Shown here one piece after another: positions 24,419 through 63,728 of a stretch of 64,000 nt of DNA; within the stretch, counting starts at the first letter, position 1, and every line of letters begins with the position of its first letter. A program made the position numbers and the translations under genes. The stretch lies in the NCBI GenBank assembly GCA_965262725.1, contig OZ253555.1, positions 1,888,001-1,952,000 on the forward strand, given 5' to 3'. This DNA is from Dehalococcoidia bacterium. GTDB taxonomy: Bacteria; Chloroflexota; Dehalococcoidia; UBA2979. The notes under the pieces were generated by a model. That model saw nothing but the letters and a program-made list of their open reading frames with translations. It ran no database searches and was not told the origin of the DNA.

Positions 24419-25716
24419 CAGGGTGATGAAAAACCCCTGATCGTCTGGCAAGATGGAGTTGGCGGCGGGGGCGTAGCCTGGAGGCTGCCCCATGCGAGGC
24501 GACGCCGAGCGTCAGACGAACATGCTGCTGGCGGTGACGCCGGACTCCTTCATCCCGGACGACCACCCGATTCGCCGCATCAAGCCGATCGTCGATGCCG
24601 CGCTGCGGCGGCTCTCGCCGCTGTTCGACACGATGTACTCAACGGAGGGGCGGCCCTCGATCCCGCCCGAGCATCTGCTCAAGGCGAGCCTGCTGATCGC
24701 GCTCTACTCGATCCGCAGCGAGCGCCAGTTCTGCGAGCGGCTGCGCTACGACCTGCTGTTCAAGTGGTTCCTGGACCTCAACATCTCAGACGAGCCCTTC
24801 AACGCCACCACGTTCTCCAAGAACCGCGAGCGCCTGCTCGCGGCCAGCGTCGCACGCGCTTTCTTCGCCGAGGTGGTGGCCGAGGCGAGGCGGCGCAGGC
24901 TGCTCTCGGCCGAGCACTTCACCGTCGACGGGACGCTGCTCGAGGCGTGGGCGTCACTGAAGAGCTACCGCCCGCGCGACGACCAGGACCCGCCGTCCGG
25001 GGGCGGGCGCAACCCGGAGGTCGATTTCCGGGGGCAGCAGCGGCGCAGCGACACCCACGCCAGCAGCACGGACCCCGAAGCGCGGCTCTACCGCAAGGGG
25101 CGGGGGCAGAAAGCGGCGCTCAGCTACATGGGTCACCTGTTGACGGAGAACCGGCACGGCCTGGTGGTGGACGTCGAACTCACCGAAGCGCACGGACGCG
25201 CCGAGCGCGAGGCGGCAGTCGCGATGGTGGAGCGCAGCACCACAGGCCGCGCCACGCTGGGAGCAGACCGCGGCTACGACACGCGTGACTTCGTGGCGCA
25301 GCTGCGCTCGCGCGGGGTGACCCCGCACGTGGCGGTCAACGACCACCGCTGGGGTCACGGGGCAATCGACGGGCGCACGACGCGGCACGACGGCTACGCG
25401 CTGAGTCAGCGCCGGCGCAAGCGCGTCGAAGAGGTCTTCGGCTGGATCAAGACCGTGGGCGGAGGCCGCAAGCTCCGCTACGTGGGAGCCGCCGCCAACC
25501 GCTTCTGGCTGGAGCTCAACGCATCGGCCTACAACCTGGTCCGCATCGCCAAACTCGAACTCGACCCGGCGTAGGCGCAGTGCGCCCTCCTGCCTGTCTG
25601 CAGCCCCTGCAGACAGCCGCAGGGCAGCTCAGGAGCAACGACCGCACCGCCGCGGGGCGGCTTCAGCGCCGCCCGACGCCTCTCGCCACCACCGCAGCGG
25701 CTTTTTCAGCAGCCTG
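24419..25716 (+). mobile_element. Complete IS5-family element with CTAG target duplication
   Basis: IRs CAGGGTGATGAAAAACCC / GGCTTTTTCAGCAGCCTG; CTAG at 24415-18 and 25717-20. Confidence 0.9.
24492..25574 (+). CDS. IS5-family transposase
   Basis: GRPSIPPEHLLKA, FTVDGTLLEAWAS, TDPEARLYRK, LGADRGYD, RKRVEEVFGWIK. Confidence 0.93.
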   Translation: MRGDAERQTNMLLAVTPDSFIPDDHPIRRIKPIVDAALRRLSPLFDTMYSTEGRPSIPPEHLLKASLLIALYSIRSERQFCERLRYDLLFKWFLDLNISDEPFNATTFSKNRERLLAASVARAFFAEVVAEARRRRLLSAEHFTVDGTLLEAWASLKSYRPRDDQDPPSGGGRNPEVDFRGQQRRSDTHASSTDPEARLYRKGRGQKAALSYMGHLLTENRHGLVVDVELTEAHGRAEREAAVAMVERSTTGRATLGADRGYDTRDFVAQLRSRGVTPHVAVNDHRWGHGAIDGRTTRHDGYALSQRRRKRVEEVFGWIKTVGGGRKLRYVGAAANRFWLELNASAYNLVRIAKLELDPA

Positions 25717-25876: not shown

Positions 25877-26880
25877 GCGGTCGGCTCCCTCGAGCAGCGC
25901 GTTCAGCCCCGCGGCGGGCGGTGCGGTTTCTGCTCGGGAGACTGGGCGCCGTTTCCGCCCCTCCGCTCAGGACTGCCCGGTCTGTCGGCTCTCCATCTCC
26001 GGGAGGCCCGGCCGAGACGCTGCCGGCAGTCTCCGATGCCGGCCCCTTATCTCAAATCCACCGATCGAAGCGTGACAGGGCGGGATTCCGGGCTGCCGGA
26101 GAGTTCGGCAGGCGTGCCGGCGTTCGCCGGGCGGCGCCGGGGGCGGGCCGGCGCTGTGAGCGGGCGTCAGGCGGGGAGCGGAAGCGCCCGTAACCGCGCC
26201 AGGGCGGCTGTCCACTGGCCGGCCCAGGGCCAGCGCTTCGGGAGGTGCAGGGTCCAGCGCCGGGCAGAATGGGTGAGCCGTCCGGCGAGAGCGAAGAAGC
26301 GCCGCCTGAGCGTCCTGGTCGTCACGATTCCCTCGCCGAGCCCGAGGCGCGCCGTCCAGCGGGCGAGGTTGTGCGCGATCACCTGCACCGCGAGCCACGC
26401 CGCGTTCGCGGCGAAGCGGCCCGAGGGGAGATGGTTCAGCCCGACGCCGTACTTGAGGTCGCGGATCGCGTTCTCGATCTCGGCGTGACGGCGATGGTCG
26501 GCCTCCAGCTCCATCATCTCCCCGGCGCGATCGGTGATGAAGGCGTGGTAGACACCCCATGTCCGTAACGCGCAAGGGGCGCCCCCACCCGGGCAGCGAA
26601 TCGGGGTGTCGGGTGCGCGATGCGCAAGGAGATCGTGAGCAGTCGGAGCGCCGTGTTAGAGCCGTGCGCGCGGCGGTGTTCCGAGGTCGACGCCGCCGGA
26701 GAGAATGGTCTTGGCCGGCGTGAGATGGGTGTCGGCTTCTGCGGACATGCGGTGGCTGGCCGACCGCTGCCGGTCGCCCGTGACGCGGGGTGCGCAGGTA
26801 CTCGCCTCGCCGAGTTGCGCCCTCAACGAGCTCCAGACCCTGGATGAGTCGCGGCCCGCCGAGGCGCTCCGCGACCTCCG

Positions 26881-28107
26881 TCAGGCGGCGAGCTCAGCGT
26901 CCTCGGTGCCCAGGCCGCCCCAGGCAGTCTCCTCGTCGTAGAGCCGGCGCTTGTGCAGGCAGCCGTGCAGGAACGCGACCAGGCGGTTGGCGAGGGCGCG
27001 CAGCGCCTGGTTGTGCCCGTCGCCGAGCGCCCGCCGCTGCTGGTAGTACGCCCGGCACCCGGGACTCGCCTGGAGCGAGCAGAACGCCCACATGTGTATC
27101 GCGTCGTAGAGGCGCCGGTTCCGCACGTGGCGCGCGGTGACCGCCCGCTTCCGCCCCGATGATATGGTGAGCGGCGACGTGCCCGCGTAGTTCCTGCGGG
27201 ACTTCGCGGACACGAAGCGTTCGGGGTCATCCCCGAACTCGCCCAGCACCCGGGCGCCGAGCACGGGCCCCAGGCCCGGCATCGACAGGTAAATCGCGGC
27301 GTCCGGGTGCTCCTCAAGAGACGCGGCCAGCTTCGACTCCAGTACCTCGAGTTGCCGGTTGATCTCCTGGAGCTGGGCAACCTGGGCGAGCACGCTGTCG
27401 GCGAACGCCTCGCTGAGCGCGGGCGCGACCGGGAGCGTGCGGAGCCGGAGTACCTCGCGTATCTCTTCCGCCCGCGTGTCCAGGTTGCGCTTGCGGCCTC
27501 CGCGCCTGAGCGCCGCGCGGAGCTGCGTCCGCGTCAGCTTCGCCGCCGCGAGCGGCTCCGGGGCGACGGCCAGCACCGAGAGCGCATCGGGATGCGTGAG
27601 GTCGGGGAAGGCCTGGAGTGCGGCCGGGAAGTACTGCAGCAGCGCGCTGCGCAGCCGGTTGCTCTCGCGGGTGCGATTCCAGACCAGCTGCTGCTGGGCG
27701 CGGGCGCGCACCTGCACGGCGGAGGCGAGGGCGCTGTCGCCCGCGACCGGCCGGTGGTTGTGGCTGTCGGTGCGGACGAGGTTCGCGAGCATGCGCGCAT
27801 CGCCCCGGTCCGACTTCCCGCCGCCGACCTGGTGTCGCTCGCGGTAGAGGGCCGCCACCCGCGGATTGATGGCGTAGACCCGGTAGCCCGCGCCGATGAG
27901 CGCTGCGACCCACGGGCCGCGGTCGGTCTCGATGCCGACCACGACCTGGCCGGCCTCCTGTGCATGCTCGGCGAGCAGCGCATGGAGCGCGGTCATGCCC
28001 TCCGCTCCCTCGGGGAGTCGCTTCGCCGCGAGGCTCTCGCCCTCCTCGTTCATGAGATGGACATCGTGATGGTCCTCGGCCCAGTCGTCCCCCACGTACA
28101 CCGTCAA
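26881..28107 (-). CDS. IS110 DEDD recombinase/transposase
   Basis: VYVGDDWAEDHHD, GIET, KSDRGDA, MPGLGPVLGARVLGEFGD, YAGTSPLTISSG. Confidence 0.95.
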   Translation of the reverse strand: MTVYVGDDWAEDHHDVHLMNEEGESLAAKRLPEGAEGMTALHALLAEHAQEAGQVVVGIETDRGPWVAALIGAGYRVYAINPRVAALYRERHQVGGGKSDRGDARMLANLVRTDSHNHRPVAGDSALASAVQVRARAQQQLVWNRTRESNRLRSALLQYFPAALQAFPDLTHPDALSVLAVAPEPLAAAKLTRTQLRAALRRGGRKRNLDTRAEEIREVLRLRTLPVAPALSEAFADSVLAQVAQLQEINRQLEVLESKLAASLEEHPDAAIYLSMPGLGPVLGARVLGEFGDDPERFVSAKSRRNYAGTSPLTISSGRKRAVTARHVRNRRLYDAIHMWAFCSLQASPGCRAYYQQRRALGDGHNQALRALANRLVAFLHGCLHKRRLYDEETAWGGLGTEDAELAA

Positions 28108-28159
28108 CCCGTGCTCCCTTCCGTCCCACCTGTCCGTCCCACCTGGCTGGCTAGACCCA

Positions 28160-28320
28160 CGGGGCTGCTCCGCAACGAGCTAATGGCACGGTGCTCTACC
28201 GGCACGACACCCCATCAGTGCATCGCAGGCCCGAACGAACCAGCCGGGGCACGGTCTACCACTGGAGGTCGCAATCGCCTCAGCTATTACTAGTGCTCTC
28301 CGGCTGGCGGGTCCGGAACC
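28160..28320 (-). ncRNA. Bridge RNA of the IS110 element (target loop then donor loop); boundaries approximate
   Basis: Guide segments match both the insertion site and the element's end junction; closing stem 28240-52/28293-307 (see findings). Confidence 0.8.
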
Positions 28321-28964
28321 AGTCTCCCGGATCGCTCTGGTCCTCTGGTTCGGCTCCCATTAGCTGTAGCTGGTGAAGAGCGCGAGCTGGGAGCCGGGCG
28401 CCGGCTTCACGCGCCGCACGATAAGCCGCACCGGGGCAGCGTCCTCCCTGTGCCGGAACGGGGTGTAGGTCGTCTCGGCGACAGCGGCGCCGTCATCCAG
28501 CCAGTACGGGATCGGCGTCCAGTCCTCTTCCGGGATCGCCTCGATCAGCGCGCGCACGTTCGGCTGCTGGCGGATCGTGACCGAGAAGCGGACATCCAGC
28601 GCGCGGCAGGCGGCGACGACGGCGTGGGTGTAGAAGCCGCTGTCGGCGCGCATCGTCAGCTGCCCGCTCGCTCCGGCGCCGCGCACCCGCGCCACCGTCT
28701 CACGCAGGAAGTGGGCGGCGCCGCGGCCGCTGCTCGCGCGGCCCTCGCGCAGCCGCGCCATCAGCACCTCGCCTGAGCCGGCCGCCACCGCGAGCAGCGG
28801 GTGATAGCCGCGCGCGCCGCTGTAGCCGGGCTGCCGGGCGCCCTCCTTCGCCAGGCCGTAGGTCTCGCAGAGCGTCGAATCGAGGTCGATCGTGAACGGC
28901 TGGGAATGACAACTCCATTTGGCCCCACCTTGATCCTTGAAACTGGCCCCACCCCCGGGTGTGG

Positions 28965-29747
28965 TCAGCTGGTTGGTGCACCTCCCTTCGTGGCGGCGGT
29001 GACCCGCAGGCGATAGGAGTCGCTGCCGGTCTCGATGATGTGGGCGCGGAAGGTGAGGCGGTCGACGACCGCGGCGGCGAGGCGCGCGTCGGTGAAGGTG
29101 CGGCCCCACTCCGAGAACGGCGCATTGGAGGCGACCGCCACCGAGGCCCGCTCCTCGCGCTCGGTCAGGATCTGGAAGAGCAACTCGGCGCCGCGCGGGT
29201 CGAGGTGGACGTAGCCGAACTCGTCGAGGCACAGCAGGTCGAGCCGCCCGTAGCGGGCGACCAGGCGCGAGAGCGTGCGCTCGTCGGCCGCCTCGGCCAG
29301 TTCGTTCACGAGCTGTGCCGCCGTCGTGTAGCGCACCCGCAGCCCGCGCTGGCAGGCGGCCATGCCGAGGCCGATCAGCAGATGCGACTTGCCGGTACCG
29401 CTGTCGCCGAGCAGCACGACGGGCTCGCCCTGGGCGATCCACTCGCCGCGTTCGAGTGTGGCGAGCAGCGCCGGGTCGACGCTGGGCGCCGCCGCCAGGT
29501 CGAAGTCGGCGAGGTACTTGAGGCGTGGGAAGCGCGCCTCGCGGATGCGGCGCTCGCGGCGGCGCTCGTCGCGGTCGTCGAGTTCGGCCTGGAGCACCTC
29601 GGCGAGGTAGCCGAGATGGCTGAGCCGCTCGCGCAGCGCGGCCTCGGCGAGCGCAGCGGCCTGCTGGCGCACAGTCGGGAGGTGCAGCTCCCGGCTGGTC
29701 GCCTCGACCGTCAGCGCCGCCGCCTGCTCGGTCACGGGCGCGCTCAT
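28965..29747 (-). CDS. istB: IS21 helper ATPase IstB
   Basis: GDSGTGKSH Walker A, LLCLDEFGY Walker B, SNAPFSEW, AAVVDRL. Confidence 0.95.
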   Translation of the reverse strand: MSAPVTEQAAALTVEATSRELHLPTVRQQAAALAEAALRERLSHLGYLAEVLQAELDDRDERRRERRIREARFPRLKYLADFDLAAAPSVDPALLATLERGEWIAQGEPVVLLGDSGTGKSHLLIGLGMAACQRGLRVRYTTAAQLVNELAEAADERTLSRLVARYGRLDLLCLDEFGYVHLDPRGAELLFQILTEREERASVAVASNAPFSEWGRTFTDARLAAAVVDRLTFRAHIIETGSDSYRLRVTAATKGGAPTS

Positions 29748-31273
29748 CGGGCGCTCCCGGCGAGCAGCGCGTCGTAGCCGGCCAGGGCCGGGGCCGGGCG
29801 GTCGAAGCGCCGCAGCGCCGGCCGCTCCACGACGGCGCGCTCGCGGCGGCCGTCGGCGATGCGGCGCGCCTCGATAGCCACCAGCGCCGGGTTCACCGAG
29901 CCCACGCGCTCCACCGCATCGAGCGCGGCGTGCACGGCCACGAAGGGCAGGTGGCGGTGCAGCAGCAGCACCTCGATCAGCGTCCGCGTCCCCTCGCGGT
30001 CACCGAGCTTGCGGCGGGTGCGCTTCCAGAAGCGTTCGTGCACGGCGGTGAAGCTCCCCGAGGCGCGCGCCTGCTCGAGCGCGACCGCGCCGGGCAGCGC
30101 GCCGGGCTTGCGTGATAGCACCTCGAGGAAGTGGTCGAGCACGAGGATCTCGGCCCCCCGGTGCGCGCTGCGCTCGTGGCGGGCGACCACCCGGCCCTCG
30201 GCGAGGGCGGTGACGGTCCCGCCGCCGAGGCGCACCTCCACCGTGCGGCCCGCGTAGGCCGCGGGCACCGAGTAGCGCGAGCCGCGCACCGCGATGCGCG
30301 CCTTGCGGTCGGCCTTCGCGCGCAGCGGGACCGTGGAGTCGAAGGCTTCGGCGGGAAGGGGCCGCAACATCGCACGCTCGGCCTCCGCCGCCTGCCCGAC
30401 GGTGGCGAGCCTGCCGGCGATGTGGCGCGCGTCGTCTGAGCGGTCGGCGGCCTCGAGCAGCGCATTCAACTCGGCCAGGCTCTCCACGCGCGGGACCGGC
30501 ACGAGGTGGCGGCGGCGGAAGCGGCCGACCTCGCCCTCCACGCCGCCCTTCTCATGCGCGCCCGCGCTGCCGGGCTCGCAGAAGAAGCTGTCGAAGCCGA
30601 AGTGCGAGCGCAGCGCGGCGAAGCGGTCGCTCTCGACGCGGTCGCGCCCGGCGAGGACGCGCACCACCGCCGCCTTGAGGTTGTCGTAGCGGACCCGCCG
30701 CGGCACGCCGCCGAGGCGCCCGAAGGCGAGCGTGTGGCCCTCGAGGAACGCCTCCTGGCCCTCGCCCGCGAAGCACACGTGGACCGCCCGCCCCGAGTGC
30801 GAGAGCCGCATCACGAACATCGGCAGCACGGTCTCGACGCCCGCCAGCCACACGCTGACCTCGCCGAAGTCCACCTCCGCCTCCTCGCCCGGGGGATGCA
30901 GCTGGGGGATCGTCACGACCTGGCGGCCGGACTCGAGCTCGCGCCGCAGGCGGGCGACGCAGGCGCGGACCGTCGCCTCGGCGACCGTCGCGCCGTACTC
31001 ATCGACGAGGCGCTCCCAGACCCGCCGCGCCGTGTGCCGCTGCTTGCGGGGCGCGCTCAGGTCGGCGACGAGCCACTCCCGGATGATCTCCACGTACGGA
31101 CCGAGCTTCGGCGCCGCTCGGGACGCCTGCTTGCGCTGCGGCGGCAGCGCCGACTGCAGCGCCTGCCGTACCGTGCGCCGATGCACGTGCTGGCGGCGCG
31201 CCAGCTCGCGTATGGCCAGCCCCTCCTCTCGCCGTGCCCGTCGGATATGCTCGAACAACTCCACCCTCGACAC
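29744..31273 (-). CDS. istA: IS21 transposase IstA
   Basis: KQRHTARR, PGEEAEVDFG, VRYDNLKAAV, HEKGGVEGEVG. Confidence 0.95.
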   Translation of the reverse strand: MSRVELFEHIRRARREEGLAIRELARRQHVHRRTVRQALQSALPPQRKQASRAAPKLGPYVEIIREWLVADLSAPRKQRHTARRVWERLVDEYGATVAEATVRACVARLRRELESGRQVVTIPQLHPPGEEAEVDFGEVSVWLAGVETVLPMFVMRLSHSGRAVHVCFAGEGQEAFLEGHTLAFGRLGGVPRRVRYDNLKAAVVRVLAGRDRVESDRFAALRSHFGFDSFFCEPGSAGAHEKGGVEGEVGRFRRRHLVPVPRVESLAELNALLEAADRSDDARHIAGRLATVGQAAEAERAMLRPLPAEAFDSTVPLRAKADRKARIAVRGSRYSVPAAYAGRTVEVRLGGGTVTALAEGRVVARHERSAHRGAEILVLDHFLEVLSRKPGALPGAVALEQARASGSFTAVHERFWKRTRRKLGDREGTRTLIEVLLLHRHLPFVAVHAALDAVERVGSVNPALVAIEARRIADGRRERAVVERPALRRFDRPAPALAGYDALLAGSAR

Positions 31274-31909: not shown

Positions 31910-32494
31910 TTAGCAGAAGGGCATGTAGCCACTGCCAACCACAGACGAGGTCAACTGGTCTTCCAGGCTGCTTGGCGCGCACCCGCTCAACAAGTTTTCG
32001 CTGAGGTCCAGCACTTTTAGGTTGGAGAGGCTGCCCAGCTCCGCCGGTATCTCCCCGCTCAAGCTGTTCCAGCCGAGGTCCAACTCTACCAGGTTGGAGA
32101 GGCCGCCCAGCTCCGCCGGTATCTCCCCGCTCAAGTCGTTGCTCTTGAGGTCCAGCTCTGTCAGGCTAGAGAGGCTGCCCAGCTCCGGCGGTATCTCTCC
32201 GCTCAAGTCGTTGCTCTTGAGGTCCAGTATCTCCAGGTTGGAGAGGTTGCCCAGCTCCGCCGGTATCTCCCCGCTCAAGTCGTTGTCGCGGAGGTACAGT
32301 CCCTCCAGGTTGGAGAGGCTGCCCAGCTCCGGCGGTATCTCCCCGCTCAAGTCGTTGTCGCTGAGGCTCAGGCTCTTCAGGTTGGAGAGGCTGCCCAGCT
32401 CCGCCGGTATCTCCCCGCTCAAGTCGTTGTAGCTGAGGCTCAGGCTCTTCAGGTTGGAGAGGCTGCCCAGCTCCGCCGGTATCTCCCCGCTCAA
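31910..32494 (-). pseudogene. 3' part of a plant-type leucine-rich-repeat protein gene (7 x 24 aa), fused to an IS1380 remnant
   Basis: LSGEIP(A/P)ELGxLSNLxxLxLxxNx repeated 7 times (72-bp units), ending LSGCAPSSL...PFC. Confidence 0.88.
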
Positions 32495-33190
32495 AGCGGA
32501 CATCCAGCGCGCGGCAGGCGGCGACGACGGCGTGGGTGTAGAAGCCGCTGTCGGCGCGCATCGTGAGCTGCCCCGACGCCCTCGGCGGAGTCGCACCCGC
32601 GCCACCGTCTCACGCAGGAAGTGGGCGGCGCCGCGGCCGCTGTGCGCGCGGCCCTCGCGCAGCCGCGCCATCAGCACGTCGCCTGAGCCGGCCGCCACCA
32701 CGAGCAACGGGTGATAGCCGCGCGCGCCGCTGTAGCCGGGCTGGCGGGCGCCCTCCTTGGCGAGGCCGTAGGTCTCGCAGAGCGTCGAGTCGAGGTCGAT
32801 TGTGAGCGGCGCGTCGCCGGGTCCCGCTCCGGCCGCCCAGGCGCGGTCGAGCTGGCGGACGTGGCCCCAGCGGAAGCTGCGCAGGAAGGTCCCGAGGGTG
32901 GACGGCGCCTTCACGGTGCAGCCGAGCACGCGCCCGGCGCCGCCGGCGCGCAACGCATCGGCGTCGTCGATGCAGTCGCCGCCCGCGAGCGCCGAGGCGA
33001 CCAGGGTCAGCAGCTTGTCGCCGGCGTTCGCGCGCCCCGCCGCGTCACCGAGGTCGAGATGGCGCTCGGCGAGCTCGCGGAGGCCGAACCGGCCGGCGAG
33101 GGTGGCGGGGAGCAGCAGGCCCGCGTGGTCCACGAGGTGGTCGTCGTCGAAGGCGATGTCTATCCGGTCGGGGTCGCTCGTTGGTAGCAT
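32495..33190 (-). pseudogene. IS1380 transposase 5' half (frameshift ~32590, 3'-deleted)
   Basis: MLPTSDPDRIDIAFDDD..., LTIDLDSTLCETYG, GYHPLL; paralogue of 62403-63728. Confidence 0.9.
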
Positions 33191-33572
33191 CGAATGGGGT
33201 GCGCCAGGCTAACTGGTGCTTGGGCAGGAGGTGCAAGTCCTCTACGGCGAAGGAGCAAGCCACTCCACGCGGTTCCGCGAGCCGTGCGCGACTCGTCGCG
33301 AGGCGAGCCGTGAAGCGTCGGCAGCGGGGTAGGCGGGCGGAGCTATTGAGCATCGAAAGATGCATAATCCGGAGTGCCGAGGCTTTCCCATTGGTCGAAG
33401 GCAACACCGGCAACGGCGCTTCTGGCGAGCCGTCGTCGGGCTCTGCGGTGTCAAAGAACTCACGCACGTCTGCACGTCCAGCACCGGGACCTCATATGGA
33501 TGCCTCGGTTGTCAAGCCCCGTCCAGCGGTACTTGAACGTCCGGTCTGCTGCGGCGGCGGTCGCGCGAGGAT

Positions 33573-62402: not shown

Positions 62403-63728
62403 TCAGGCCGGGAGCGGTATCGCCCGTAGTCGCGCGAGCGCGGCTGCCAGCTGCTCTGCCCAGGGCCAGCGCTTCGGGAGGTGCAGAGTCCACCGCCGGG
62501 CAGAGCGGGTGAGCCGTCCGGCGAGAGAGAAGTAGCGTCGCCTGAGCGTCCTGGTCGTCACGATCCCCTCGCCGAGCCCGAGGCGTGCCGTCCAGCGGGC
62601 GAGGTTGTGCGCGATCACCTGCACCGCGAGCCACGCCGCGTTCGCGGCGAAGCGGCCCGAGGGGAGATGGTTCAACCCGACGCCGTACTTGAGGTCGCGG
62701 ATCGCGTTCTCGATCTCGGCGTGACGGCGATGGTCGGCCTCCAGCTCCATCATCTCCCCCGCGCGATCGGTGATGAAGGCATGGTAACTGTAGTTCACGA
62801 AGAGTGCGAGCTGTGAGCCGGGCGTCGGCTTGACGCGCCGCACGATGAGCCGCACCGCGGTGGCGTCCCTCGTGTGCTGGAACGGCGTGTAGGTCGTCTC
62901 GGCGACAGCGGCGCCGTCGTCCTGCCAGTACGGGATCGGCGTCCAGTCCTCTTCCGGTATCGCCTCGATCAGCCGGCGTACGTTCGGCTGCTGGCGAATG
63001 GTGATGGAAAAGCGGACATCCTGCTTGCGACAGACGGCGACGACAGCGTGGTTGTAGAAGCCGCTGTCGGCGCGCACCGTGAGCTGCCCGCTCGCCCCGG
63101 CGTCGCGCACCCGCGCCACCGTCTCACGGAGAAAGTGTGCGGCCCCCCGAGCGGTGTTGGCACGGCCCCCGCGCAGCCGGGCCATCAGCACCTCACCCGT
63201 CCCGGCCGCCACCGCGAGCAGCGGGTGATAGCCGCGCACGCCCGTGTAGCCGTGGTGCCGGGCGCCCTCCTTCGCCAGGCCGTAGGTCTCGCAGAGCGTC
63301 GAGTCGAGGTCGATGGTGAACGGCGCCGCGCCGGGTCCCGCCCCGGCCGCCCAACTGCGGGCCAGCAACTCGCGGCTGACGCGGTCGAGCTGACGGACGT
63401 GGCCCCAGCGAAAGCTGCGCAGGAAGGTCCCGAGGGTGGACGGCGCCTTCACGGTGCAGCCGAGCACGCGCCCGGTGCCGCCTGAGCGCATGGCATCGGC
63501 GTCATCGATGCAGTCGCCGCCCGCGAGCGCCGAGGCGATGAGAGTCATCAGCTTGTCGCCGACGTTCGCCCGCCCCGCTGCGTCACCGAGGTCGAGGTGG
63601 GCGTCTGCCAGTTCACGGAGGCCGAGCCGGCCAGCGAGCGTGGCCGGGAGCAGCAGGCCCGCGTGGTCCACGAGGCGGTCGTCGTCGAAGGCGATGTGTA
63701 TCCGGTCGGGGCTGCTCGTTGCTAGCAT
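62403..63728 (-). CDS. IS1380-family transposase (intact ORF)
   Basis: FTIDLDST, GYHPLL, VRADSGFY, HRRHAEIENAIRDLK, PSGRFAANAAW; right end ATCTCGAATCCACCGATCGAAG at ~62179. Confidence 0.94.
   Translation of the reverse strand: MLATSSPDRIHIAFDDDRLVDHAGLLLPATLAGRLGLRELADAHLDLGDAAGRANVGDKLMTLIASALAGGDCIDDADAMRSGGTGRVLGCTVKAPSTLGTFLRSFRWGHVRQLDRVSRELLARSWAAGAGPGAAPFTIDLDSTLCETYGLAKEGARHHGYTGVRGYHPLLAVAAGTGEVLMARLRGGRANTARGAAHFLRETVARVRDAGASGQLTVRADSGFYNHAVVAVCRKQDVRFSITIRQQPNVRRLIEAIPEEDWTPIPYWQDDGAAVAETTYTPFQHTRDATAVRLIVRRVKPTPGSQLALFVNYSYHAFITDRAGEMMELEADHRRHAEIENAIRDLKYGVGLNHLPSGRFAANAAWLAVQVIAHNLARWTARLGLGEGIVTTRTLRRRYFSLAGRLTRSARRWTLHLPKRWPWAEQLAAALARLRAIPLPA

What the first reader, a model, noticed from the sequence alone, without database searches (positions are those of the whole stretch)
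26552..28363. IS110 with a fully legible bridge RNA programmed against the IS1380 transposase gene
Seen (- strand): the target is GCTACAG-CT-ACCAC and the donor junction is ATGGGGTGT-CT-AATGG. In the leader, LTG GTAATAGCT (28290-82) has 6/9 identities plus two U:G-compatible positions; RTG GTGGTAG (28262-56) is the exact complement of CTACCAC; LDG ATGGGGTGTC (28215-06) is a 10/10 match; RDG CCATTAG (28186-80) is the exact complement of CTAATGG. The target loop is closed by stem 28240-52/28293-307 with an inner GAGG/CCTC hairpin. The order LTG-RTG-LDG-RDG is that established for IS621-type bridge RNAs. The intact IS1380 copy reads GGTAACTGTAG at this site (~62783), lacking the core. This is a ready candidate for a new programmable recombinase.
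Basis: partly seen in the sequence, partly recalled or inferred. Interest (0 to 1): 0.78.

Follow-up and report, generated by a model that had tools for sequence, protein, structure and literature searches.

The report
IS110 element with legible bridge RNA
This is a jumping gene of the IS110 family that carries its own guide RNA, whose guide segments match the spot it landed in inside another jumping gene. It is a clear but ordinary new example of a mechanism described in 2024.

Summary
An 1812-bp IS110-family element lies on the minus strand (28361-26552), with a CT core at each end. It splits an IS1380 transposase gene.

This is more than chance. None of 20,000 shuffled leaders carried the three exact words together. 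The four leader-bearing copies in this genome differ in the stretch up to the donor loop mainly at the two target guides, which follow each copy's flanks in three of four. A covariance model found the same RNA upstream of the transposase in all 84 sources searched. Guides matched their own flanks far better than swapped flanks (LTG 4.79 vs 2.21 of 7; RTG 4.20 vs 1.93 of 5; 0 of 10,000 permutations each).

The protein passes NCBIfam's "IS110 family RNA-guided transposase" model and aligns to IS621. The right end holds a conserved -35 box placed for a circle-junction promoter.

Verdict: a new member of a known kind. No RNA, circle or activity evidence was obtainable.

Extras: 14 intact IS1380 copies read TT, not CT, at the core. 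A second IS110-family element sits only inside copies of this one. The two unbroken copies, including this one, carry a Phe-to-Leu change beside that element's core.

The parts
28362..28363 (-). Left copy of the CT core (target-derived), joining the IS1380 left target ..GCTACAG to the element
28108..28361 (-). Left end / leader (254 nt) encoding the bridge RNA; begins AATGGG
   Evidence: R1 hit at 28316-28155, 171 bits
28316..28350 (-). 5' stem-loop ahead of the target loop (single-sequence fold only)
28293..28307 (-). 5' strand of the stem closing the target-binding loop
   Evidence: helices 2-3: 98.5-98.6% paired, 9 of 14 pairs with changes on both sides
28282..28290 (-). Left target guide (LTG) GTAATAGCT, same sense as the left target plus core
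28264..28281 (-). Inner hairpin of the target loop (GAGG..CCTC)
   Evidence: helix 4: 5 of 6 pairs with changes on both sides
28256..28262 (-). Right target guide (RTG) GTGGTAG, reverse complement of CT-ACCAC
28240..28252 (-). 3' strand of the stem closing the target-binding loop
28206..28215 (-). Left donor guide (LDG) ATGGGGTGTC, identical to the last 9 nt of the right end plus the C of the core
28191..28205 (-). Inner hairpin of the donor loop (GTGC..GCAC); almost invariant among relatives
   Evidence: helix 5: 100% paired, 3 of 4 pairs never vary
28180..28186 (-). Right donor guide (RDG) CCATTAG, reverse complement of CT-AATGG at the left end
26881..28107 (-). IS110-family RNA-guided transposase/recombinase, 408 aa, open frame
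27316..27318 (-). CTT codon (Leu264) where relatives have TTT (Phe). It lies beside the core of the site where a second IS110-family element (IS-B) has broken three other copies
26552..26880 (-). Right end: non-coding (no minus-strand ORF of at least 60 aa), about 270 nt longer than in the 1.48-1.53-kb relatives; function of the extra part unknown
26570..26575 (-). -35-like hexamer TTGCGC, 17 nt before T-CT-AAT of the predicted circle junction. It is TTGACA in most relatives and TTGACC, TTGACG, TTGACT, TTGCCC or TTGCGA in others
   Evidence: junction promoter of IS621 from PMC13626964 and PMC11208160
26550..26551 (-). Right copy of the CT core, followed by the IS1380 right target ACCAC
28364..28900 (-). 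Upstream piece of the interrupted IS1380 transposase gene
26144..26549 (-). Downstream piece of the interrupted IS1380 transposase gene
62786..62787 (-). Same site in the intact IS1380 copy of the window: core reads TT (Ser codon AGT instead of AGC)

Best explanation
Window 28361-26552 (minus strand) is one copy of an IS110-group insertion sequence. I call it IS-A.

**How it works (inferred from IS621)**
- The 254-nt left end encodes an IS621-type bridge RNA. A DEDD/Ser recombinase gene of 408 aa follows.
- The target-binding loop is a closing stem around an inner hairpin.
  - Its 5' side (LTG) has the sense of the left target plus the CT core, so it would pair with the bottom strand.
  - Its 3' side (RTG) is the reverse complement of the CT core plus the right target, so it would pair with the top strand.
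- The donor-binding loop does the same for the element's own joined ends. LDG equals the end of the right end. RDG is the complement of the start of the left end.
- By analogy with IS621, the element excises as a circle. The joined right and left ends rebuild a promoter: the -35 box lies in the right end and T-CT-AAT spans the junction. That promoter drives the bridge RNA and the recombinase.
- The ribonucleoprotein then inserts the circle at a CT flanked by sequence matching the guides.

**This copy**
- The matching site is A(C/T)AG-CT-ACCAC. It encodes a conserved Tyr-Ser-Tyr-His stretch of the IS1380 transposase.

**Shown here**
- The anatomy.
- The exact guide matches.
- Guide-flank covariation within the genome and across relatives.
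- Structural covariation.
- Protein family membership.
- Conservation of the -35 box.

**Inferred, not shown**
- Transcription of the RNA.
- Circle formation.
- Catalysis.
- Whether this copy is active.
For: **Anatomy and exact matches**
- Coordinates and strings as in the observation check.

**Within this genome**
- In the four leader-bearing copies, the differences upstream of the donor-binding loop cluster at the LTG and RTG, with a few elsewhere. The donor guides are invariant. More differences and a 12-13-nt indel lie between the RDG and the start codon.
- The target guides follow each copy's flanks:
  - L004: CCAGTAGCT against CCAGCAGCT, and GGGGAG against CT-CCCC.
  - L003: ACAGCT against ACAGCT.

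**Across relatives**
- Model R1 gave 86 matches over 84 sources, at least one per source; those in the 80 relative loci whose gene position is listed lie just upstream of the recombinase gene, except the second matches in L032 and L034.
- LTG non-core identities to own flank averaged 4.79 of 7, against 2.21 for flanks of other guide classes (47 classes). No permutation of 10,000 reached the observed sum.
- RTG averaged 4.20 of 5 against 1.93 (25 classes), again 0 of 10,000.
- The per-position profile resembles IS621. LTG identities at positions 3-9 from its 3' end were 59, 54, 43, 43, 33, 33 and 25 of 61. RT positions 3-7 gave 44, 45, 46, 42 and 23 of 46.
- Nine of 48 guide pairs occur at two or more different flanks with mismatches at different places. 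This fits the guide choosing the site rather than the site rewriting the guide.

**Structure**
- 97.5% of cells pair; 17 of 27 pairs change on both sides; 0 of 500 shuffles are as high.

**Protein**
- Pfam PF01548 at 1.3e-34 and PF02371 at 6.9e-15.
- NF033542 at 197 bits, cut-off 140.
- IS621 chain 8wt6 at E 5.4e-9 and ISCro4 chain 9t56 at 3.4e-7. Asp, Asp..Asp and Ser-Gly motifs align.

**Promoter**
- In the 32 distinct right ends listed, 31 have TTGNNN at the same distance from the CT core; it is TTGACA in most. The exception (L025) may reflect a mis-set end.
- The junction promoter is established for IS621 (passages read).

**IS1380 as target**
- Three CT-core IS1380 copies are hit at this site.
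- Of the 17 uninterrupted copies, 14 have a TT core and 3 have a CT core.
Against: - No RNA, circle-junction or activity evidence could be obtained.
- The consensus scan finds no sigma-70-type promoter in the integrated element (0 found).
- The junction -10 (TCTAAT) lacks the usual A at position 2, and in this copy the -35 is degenerate (TTGCGC).
- The single-sequence fold is no better than shuffles (z = -0.73).
- One copy does not fit. L002's guides match its own flanks poorly: LTG 4 of 7, RTG about 2 of 5. Its right flank fits the RTG of copy L004 better.
- The LTG of the window copy is imperfect: 6 of 9 identities.
- The LDG matches the donor only through the C of the core. The next base is G in every row listed, where the donor has T.
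- The right end (329 nt) is longer than the left end. That is atypical for the IS110 group, which Durrant et al. describe as having a long left end and a short right end.
- For the relatives, the ends were located using the donor guides themselves. The donor-guide match across relatives is therefore partly circular.
- Rfam 15 has no matching family here, so no curated model could be applied.
- Leu264 replaces a conserved Phe, with unknown effect on activity.
Confidence: 0.9

Rival explanations
1. The leader is only a structured 5' untranslated region that regulates the transposase. On this reading the matches to the flanks and ends are by-products, for example subterminal inverted repeats plus a protein-determined target preference.
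For: - No RNA data exist.
- The single-sequence fold is not significant.
- RDG and the left end form an inverted repeat inside the leader. LDG and RDG can pair with each other in folds.
Against: - The guides change while the rest of the leader stays nearly constant, and they change in step with the flanks. This holds within one genome and across 47 and 25 guide classes, with 0 of 10,000 permutations as high.
- A protein-determined preference would not make RNA-coding positions covary with flanks among elements whose proteins are 93-100% identical.
- The IS621 mechanism is experimentally established.
Confidence: 0.03
2. The covariation runs the other way. The target-loop segments are rewritten from the target at or after each insertion, so the guide records the site rather than choosing it.
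For: - Covariation alone cannot give direction.
- Near-identical copies carry very different guides. Copy L002 differs from the window copy at 39 positions, 36 of them in the first 300 nt.
Against: - Nine of 48 guide pairs sit at two or more different flanks with mismatches at varying positions, so the guides were not copied from the flanks.
- The window guide itself differs from its target at 3 of 9 positions.
- The L002 leader shares variants outside the guides with the L004 lineage. That pattern points to exchange of a leader segment between copies, not local rewriting.
Confidence: 0.03
3. The element is a correct bridge-RNA IS110, but this copy is a fossil. It is trapped in a dead IS1380 in a region full of insertion sequences, and its recombinase is weakened by Phe264Leu.
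For: - Leu264 stands against Phe in 10 of 10 relatives from other genomes and in the three broken own copies.
- The -35 box is degenerate, TTGCGC, where most relatives have TTGACA.
- No go-back (circle) joint was seen in the contigs of four runs.
- The surrounding IS1380 is also cut by an IS21-family element.
Against: - The reading frame is intact, with both domains.
- Copy L002 shares a body that differs at only 3 positions beyond nt 300, which suggests recent spread of the Leu264 form.
- Contigs cannot show rare circles.
Confidence: 0.3

Closest known systems
IS621 (E. coli) bridge recombinase and bridge RNA (Durrant et al. 2024, PMC11208160; Hiraizumi et al. 2024, PMC11208158, seen in search listing only)
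   Same: - Recombinase with a DEDD domain and a Ser-type Tnp domain.
- The RNA is encoded in the left end.
- Two internal loops in the order LTG-RTG-LDG-RDG.
- The 5' sides have the sense of the top strand; the 3' sides are its complement.
- CT core included in the guides.
- LTG of about 9 nt and RTG of 4-7 nt.
- The target loop is variable and the donor loop is conserved.
- A -35 box in the right end placed for a junction promoter.
   Different: - Distant protein: phmmer E 5.4e-9, 408 aa against a 328-aa solved chain.
- 70.6% G+C genome. The closest relatives lie in assemblies labelled Dehalococcoidia and Actinomycetota.
- The target is a coding motif of another insertion sequence. That IS621 targets REP repeats is recalled, not seen in a call.
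- The right end is 329 nt.
- Nothing has been tested experimentally.
ISCro4 / IS622 bridge recombinases used for genome rearrangement (10.1101/2025.05.14.653916, abstract in search listing; PDB 9t56)
   Same: Same family. The solved ISCro4 chain is matched at E 3.4e-7.
   Different: Those were chosen by activity screens. This element has no activity data.
[quoted passage not shown]
   Same: An IS110-family element whose preferred site lies inside another mobile element.
   Different: - In the IS1111 group the RNA lies in the right end and the subterminal repeats are long.
- Here the RNA lies in the left end, and the target is inside a transposase coding sequence.
ISPpu9 / ISPpu10 of Pseudomonas putida (PMC12288879; 10.64898/2026.03.19.712850; abstracts in search listings)
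   Same: Multi-copy IS110-family elements that insert into one repeated sequence of the host genome.
   Different: Their targets are intergenic REP-type repeats, not another insertion sequence's gene.

Membership tests
IS110 family, IS110 group (bridge-RNA-guided recombinases) | Recombinase with an N-terminal DEDD (RuvC-like) domain and a C-terminal Tnp domain carrying the catalytic Ser | tested here: met
   - PF01548 (residues 5-161, E 1.3e-34) and PF02371 (residues 274-356, E 6.9e-15).
- NF033542 at 197.2 bits, cut-off 140.
- In the alignment to IS621 chain 8wt6, D8, the D100/D103 pair (KSDRGDA) and the S-G of ISSGRK are matched. E60 lines up with the IS621 Glu only after a one-residue shift of HMMER's gap.
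- The IS621 residue numbering is recalled and was not checked.
IS110 family, IS110 group (bridge-RNA-guided recombinases) | No inverted terminal repeats or long target duplication; a 2-nt core (usually CT) at both junctions | tested here: met
   CT lies at 28363-28362 and at 26551-26550. Joining the flanks with one CT restores the IS1380 reading frame and matches paralogous copies.
IS110 family, IS110 group (bridge-RNA-guided recombinases) | A structured non-coding RNA in the left end with two internal loops | tested here: met
   - R1 hits in all 84 sources.
- 97.5% of cells paired; 17 of 27 pairs with double changes; 0 of 500 shuffles as high.
- The outer stem of the donor loop rests on a single-sequence fold only.
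IS110 family, IS110 group (bridge-RNA-guided recombinases) | Target-loop guides match the insertion site: LTG has top-strand sense, RTG is the complement, both include the core | tested here: met
   - Window copy: LTG 6 of 9 identities plus 2 wobble positions; RTG 7 of 7.
- Covariation: 4.79 vs 2.21 of 7 and 4.20 vs 1.93 of 5, with 0 of 10,000 permutations as high.
- One own copy (L002) fits poorly.
IS110 family, IS110 group (bridge-RNA-guided recombinases) | Donor-loop guides match the element's own joined ends | tested here: met
   - LDG 10 of 10 and RDG 7 of 7. The ends were set independently, by the interrupted IS1380 gene and by copy-to-copy BLAST.
- Across relatives the test is partly circular, because the ends were located with the guides.
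IS110 family, IS110 group (bridge-RNA-guided recombinases) | A promoter rebuilt across the right-left end junction of the circle | tested here: inconclusive
   - A -35 box lies at a constant distance from the CT core in 31 of 32 distinct right ends: TTGACA in most, TTGCGC here.
- The junction hexamer TCTAAT lacks A at position 2.
- No transcription data exist.
IS110 family, IS110 group (bridge-RNA-guided recombinases) | Left end longer than the right end | tested here: not met
   - In this lineage the left end is 254 nt and the right end 329 nt.
- The 1.48-1.53-kb relatives do fit.
- This is a typical feature, not a mechanistic requirement (PMC11208160).
IS110 family, IS110 group (bridge-RNA-guided recombinases) | The RNA is expressed and bound by the recombinase; a circular intermediate forms; recombination depends on the guides | not testable with these tools
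   - No RNA run is listed.
- Contigs of four DNA runs show no circle joint.
IS1111 group (RNA in the right end; seekRNA type) | Guide RNA encoded downstream of the recombinase gene; long subterminal inverted repeats | tested here: not met
   - All four guides and the R1 model lie upstream of the gene.
- The long right end of this lineage has no counterpart in relatives and no Rfam match.

The most novel reading that the evidence does not exclude
This genome holds a three-level chain of RNA-guided parasitism between insertion sequences, with escape mutations at each level.

**Level 1: IS-A aims at IS1380.**
- IS-A's guides match a conserved coding motif of IS1380.
- All three IS1380 copies hit at this site have a CT core.
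- The 14 intact TT-core copies differ by a synonymous AGC-to-AGT change in the core itself.

**Level 2: IS-B aims at IS-A.**
- IS-B is a second IS110-family element of 1713 bp.
- It has four copies, all about 100% identical, and all lie inside IS-A copies at one site. One of those sites holds a tandem pair.
- The site is a conserved Ser-Phe-Glu coding motif of IS-A.
- The only two unbroken IS-A copies carry a derived Phe264Leu change, at the base next to IS-B's core.

**Leader exchange.**
- Leader segments also seem to move between IS-A copies as modules. Copy L002 differs from the window copy at 36 of its 39 positions within the first 300 nt.

If real, bridge-RNA elements and their mobile targets are in an arms race in which single-base core changes give immunity.
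Probability: 0.3. Interest if true: 0.55.

Novelty: new member of a known kind. Interest (0 to 1): 0.4.

Why it matters
As a bridge-RNA element it adds little. The mechanism, the loop grammar and its wide spread in IS110 elements have been in print since 2024.

Its value is as a clean natural example:
- Near-identical copies in one genome carry different target guides that track their flanks in three of four copies.
- The clade spans assemblies labelled Dehalococcoidia and Actinomycetota.
- The target is a coding motif inside another insertion sequence.

The side observations would show how mobile targets evade RNA-guided insertion in nature, and what one core mismatch costs:
- a second IS110-family element found only inside this one;
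- single-base differences at or next to the core in every unhit copy at both levels.

Both are directly testable with existing IS621-style assays.

For tool builders the clade offers many natural guide-target pairs for a high-G+C orthologue. The window copy itself carries an untested Phe264Leu change.

Tried and rejected
- **Rfam 15**. Seven matches at E up to 10 in 26400-28500, none a bridge-RNA family. Only Ms_AS-4 passed its gathering score (51.7 vs 50), on the strand opposite the recombinase gene. I read it as a family built on conserved IS110 coding sequence, not as part of the finding.
- **Single-sequence folding of the leader**. z = -0.73, so no evidence by itself.
- **RNAalifold on A1**. 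It paired LDG with RDG. I dropped those pairs from the model as a likely by-product of the similar ends.
- **Promoter and terminator scan of the integrated element**. Zero of each.
- **Expression**. No RNA holder listed.
- **Contigs of four DNA runs laid on 26000-28900**.
  - No go-back joint of circle type.
  - One joint skips exactly 1812 bases (26548 to 28361) in run X2 only. Its shorter side is 24 letters, below the 30 that the tool advises, so it is only a weak hint of an empty site.
  - The other joints, skipping 1823-1825 bases with 11-13 letters between, are paralogous IS1380 copies.
- **Right end, 329 nt**. BLAST against the genome finds only other copies. It aligns only with L018 of the same lineage. 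No function assigned.
- **IS-B leader.**
  - The single-sequence fold was uninformative (z +1.46).
  - The LTG candidate is supported by relatives. The own guide and target share TCAAAAG; the 87%-identical relatives share ACGAAAG in both.
  - The RTG candidate has a mismatch next to the core and does not explain the relatives' right flanks. The RDG was not found convincingly.
- **Literature**. The listed papers that hold IS110 and 'bridge RNA' have no occurrence of IS1380, and none of the IS110 papers listed holds 'hyperparasit'. I found no report of an IS110 element aimed at an IS1380 gene or nested in another IS110. This covers only those four searches of the held library. Supplements, including Durrant's target tables, could not be seen and may list such cases.
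- **Not used.** Structure prediction, complex prediction, protein atlas and the large protein searches. The family assignment was already clear.


Full report
**1. What is in the sequence**

On the minus strand the IS1380-type reading frame runs ..LALFTSYS up to ..GCTACAG-CT at 28363-28362. It resumes at 26551-26550 with CT-ACCACGCC.., encoding YHAFITD... The frame is continuous if the 1812 bases between are removed with one CT.

Both flanking pieces match Pfam DDE_Tnp_1_4. The upstream piece matches NCBIfam IS1380 below its cut-off because it is a fragment. Plasmid relatives of the downstream piece are annotated as IS1380 family transposase.

The insert has three parts:
- a 254-nt leader (28361-28108);
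- an open frame of 408 aa (28107-26881);
- a 329-nt non-coding right end.

**2. Is it more than chance?**

Three lines say yes.

(a) In 20,000 shuffles of the leader, the three exact words never occurred together. These were the LDG 10-mer, RDG 7-mer and RTG 7-mer.

(b) The genome holding the window is 3.67 Mb in one contig. It carries further copies:
- one full copy (L002, 98% identical);
- three copies split at the same internal position (L003+L005, L004+L007, L009+L006);
- one right-end fragment (L008);
- two left-end remnants of 41 and 38 nt (L012, L014).

Aligning the four copies that keep a leader shows that, up to the donor-binding loop, most differences fall in the two target-guide segments. 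A few lie elsewhere. Further differences and a 12-13-nt indel lie between the RDG and the start codon. The donor guides are identical in all four. Guides and flanks compare as follows.

| Copy | LTG | Left target + core | RTG | Core + right target |
|---|---|---|---|---|
| Window | AGTAATAGCT | AGCTACAG-CT | GTGGTAG | CT-ACCAC |
| L003 | AGTAACAGCT | TCATACAG-CT | GTGGTAG | CT-ACCAG |
| L004 | ACCAGTAGCT | GCCAGCAG-CT | GGGGAG | CT-CCCC |
| L002 | GACCAACGCT | ATCCTCCG-CT | CAGGTAG | CT-CCCCT |

L002 fits poorly. Its right flank fits the RTG of L004 better than its own.

(c) The recombinase protein found relatives in 549 of 598 candidate stretches of the genome collection, and the best 80 were kept.
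- The closest (93% and 82% identity) lie in assemblies titled Dehalococcoidia.
- The rest (58-69% identity) lie mostly in assemblies titled Dehalococcoidia, Chloroflexota, Actinomycetota, Mycobacterium, Rhodococcus or Nocardia.

I built a covariance model from 16 leaders (A1 and R1). It gave 86 matches over the 84 sources searched, at least one per source. In the 80 relative loci whose gene position is listed, they lie just upstream of the gene, except the second matches in L032 and L034.

**3. Structure**

On the 68 distinct rows of that alignment:
- 97.5% of cells form standard pairs, against 90.5% in shuffles;
- 17 of 27 pairs show changes on both sides;
- none of 500 shuffles reaches any observed measure;
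- sliding the 3' partners by 1-3 columns drops pairing to 27.8-50%.

The alignment was fitted to the model's structure, which favours it. However, the seed alignment made by MAFFT alone already showed 14 of 36 predicted pairs with compensatory changes. The single-sequence fold is not better than shuffles, so it counts for nothing.

**4. Guides against flanks across the clade**

For each hit I took the residues aligned to the window's four guide segments. I located the left end by the reverse complement of the RDG, and the right end by the LDG with at most one mismatch.

| Measure | LTG (7 non-core positions) | RTG (5 non-core positions) |
|---|---|---|
| Guide classes, one insertion each | 47 | 25 |
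| Mean identities with own flank | 4.79 | 4.20 |
| Mean identities with flanks of other classes | 2.21 | 1.93 |
| Permutations reaching the observed sum | 0 of 10,000 | 0 of 10,000 |

(All.)

By position:
- LTG identities, counted from its 3' end, fall from 59 of 61 at position 3 to 25 of 61 at position 9, then to background.
- Right-target positions 3-6 match in 42-46 of 46 pairs, and position 7 in 23 of 46.

This is the 8-9-nt and 4-7-nt pattern that Durrant et al. state for IS621. [quoted passage not shown]

Rows without a located end were left out. Sixty-one unique LTG-flank pairs and 46 unique RTG-flank pairs were usable. They came from the 83 of 86 rows that carry both target guides.

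Nine of 48 guide pairs occur at two or more different left flanks, with mismatches in different places. This argues that the guide selects the site rather than being copied from it.

**5. Protein**

- Pfam DEDD_Tnp_IS110 and Transposase_20 both match.
- NCBIfam "IS110 family RNA-guided transposase" scores 197 bits against a cut-off of 140.
- The only solved relatives are the IS621 and ISCro4 transposases.
- The Asp of YVGDDW, the two Asp of KSDRGDA and the Ser-Gly of ISSGRK are matched in the alignment to the IS621 chain. The Glu of GIETD lines up with the IS621 Glu only after a one-residue shift of HMMER's gap. That these are the catalytic residues is recalled knowledge.

**6. Promoter**

The integrated element has no sigma-70-type consensus match.

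In the 32 distinct right ends listed, 31 have a TTGNNN hexamer at the same distance from the CT core. It is TTGACA in most and TTGACC, TTGACG, TTGACT, TTGCCC or TTGCGA in others. L025 does not show it, perhaps because its end was mis-set. The hexamer lies 17-18 nt before the T-CT-AAT that would form when the right end is joined to the left end.

In the window copy it is TTGCGC at 26575-26570. For IS621, a promoter rebuilt across this junction drives the bridge RNA. Integrated copies are only weakly transcribed by read-through (passages of PMC13626964, and PMC11208160).

I therefore infer the same arrangement here. The -10 is imperfect, and nothing shows transcription.

**7. Is it aimed at IS1380?**

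The genome holds about 20 IS1380 copies. One search listed this site in 17 uninterrupted copies:

| Site | Copies |
|---|---|
| ..ACAG-TT-ACCA.. (includes the window's intact copy, core at 62787-62786) | 13 |
| ..ACA-TT-ACCAC (one base missing) | 1 |
| ..TATAG-CT-ACCAC | 3 |

The C-to-T change turns Ser codon AGC into AGT.

CT-core copies hit at this site are the window copy and the two remnants L012 and L014. The remnants lie in a more distant IS1380 subfamily, so these are separate events.

Overall, 3 of 6 CT-core copies are occupied against 0 of 14 TT-core copies. The copies are paralogues, so this is not an independent sample.

Of the four free AYAGCTACCA sites left in the genome, three are in IS1380.

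A sister copy (L003+L005) with the same RTG sits at CATACAG-CT-ACCAG at another locus. I did not check that locus for homology to IS1380. What the guides recognise is a motif of about 10-11 nt.

**8. What was not obtainable**

- No RNA run holds the stretch.
- Contigs of four DNA runs show no circle joint. They show only one weak exact-excision-type joint.
- Rfam has no model for this RNA class that matched here.

**9. Side findings**

(a) **A second element inside this one.** All three split copies of IS-A are broken at the same place by a 1713-bp element, IS-B.
- IS-B encodes its own IS110-family recombinase on the opposite strand (NF033542, 255 bits).
- It has four copies in the genome, all about 100% identical and all inside IS-A. 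One IS-A site holds two in tandem, separated by the 2-nt core.
- The site is ..GCGT-CT-TTTGAGG.. in IS-A's orientation, encoding Ser-Phe-Glu.
- TTT is present in 10 of 10 relatives from other genomes that I checked and in the three broken copies.
- The two unbroken copies, the window copy and L002, read CTT (Leu264, 27318-27316).
- In two of four laid runs, all contigs covering 27318 read the TTT form (table 3).
- In IS-B's leader, a word sharing TCAAAAG with its left target sits where an LTG would. In 87%-identical relatives from two related genomes, both the word and the flank read ACGAAAG. Its other guides were not resolved.

(b) **A mosaic copy.** L002 differs from the window copy at 39 positions. 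Thirty-six lie in the first 300 nt, and several are shared with the L004 lineage. This looks like exchange of the leader between copies.

(c) **An orphan fragment.** An isolated donor-loop fragment of a related leader lies at C1:1492809-1492918.

(d) **A crowded region.** The interrupted IS1380 is also cut by an IS21-family element (istA/istB, 28965-31273), and an IS5-family gene lies at 24492-25574.

**10. Comparison and verdict**

Every sequence-level feature that defines an IS621-type bridge system was tested and met. The exceptions are listed here.
- The left end is not longer than the right end in this lineage.
- The junction promoter is only plausible.
- Expression, circle formation and activity were not testable.

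It is a new member of a known kind. Durrant et al. predicted bridge RNAs in 85.7% of IS110 elements, so a specialist would not be surprised.

My four literature searches did not turn up the IS-in-IS-in-IS arrangement or the single-base differences at the cores of unhit copies. These make a modestly interesting natural-history case that standard assays could test.

Noticed in passing
Genome C1:125095-126807, 3421720-3423432, 3476388-3478100, 3478103-3479815 (loci L098, L099); corresponding site in the window at 27316-27320: A second IS110-family element (IS-B) of 1713 bp encodes a roughly 450-500-aa recombinase on the strand opposite IS-A. It has four near-identical copies, all inside IS-A copies at one site, and one site holds a tandem pair. 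The two unbroken IS-A copies read CTT (Leu264) instead of the conserved TTT (Phe) next to the core.
   Followed up: partly
Genome C1:678318-680117 (L002) compared with window 26551-28362: L002 differs from the window copy at 39 positions, 36 of them in the first 300 nt and several shared with the 93% lineage (L004). This suggests exchange of the bridge-RNA leader between copies. L002's guides fit its own flanks poorly.
   Followed up: partly
window 62786-62787 and 13 other IS1380 copies in the genome: Fourteen intact IS1380 copies carry TT instead of CT at the core of the IS-A target, a synonymous AGC-to-AGT change. Three intact copies keep CT. All three copies hit at this site have CT.
   Followed up: partly
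Genome C1:459270-459310 (L012) and C1:1610502-1610539 (L014): Left-end remnants of IS-A, 41 and 38 nt long, sit at the same site of two other IS1380 copies. Each is followed by a deletion or by unrelated sequence, as traces of earlier insertions that were later truncated.
   Followed up: partly
window 27202-27283 (+): An Rfam Ms_AS-4 (actinobacterial antisense sRNA) match of 51.7 bits (gathering score 50) lies opposite the most conserved part of the recombinase gene. The family probably reflects conserved IS110 coding sequence.
   Followed up: no
window 26552-26880 (-): The right end is about 270 nt longer than in the 1.48-1.53-kb relatives. The extra part is shared only with the 93% relatives L018 and L019. 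It has no Rfam match and no other copy in the genome. Its function is unknown.
   Followed up: partly
Genome C1:1492809-1492918 (L017:1456-1565): An orphan fragment of a related bridge-RNA leader (donor loop and downstream part, R1 57 bits) has no recombinase gene behind it.
   Followed up: partly
window 28965-31273 (-), 24492-25574 (+), 32493-33462: The region is a pile-up of insertion sequences: IS21-family istB and istA genes inside or next to the same IS1380 copy, an IS5-family transposase gene, and a further IS1380 piece.
   Followed up: partly
loci L101, L108 (G180) and L102 (G238): The 87% relatives of IS-B in two related genomes sit in another repeated sequence with homologous flanks. 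Their LTG-like word changes in step with the flank (ACGAAAG).
   Followed up: partly
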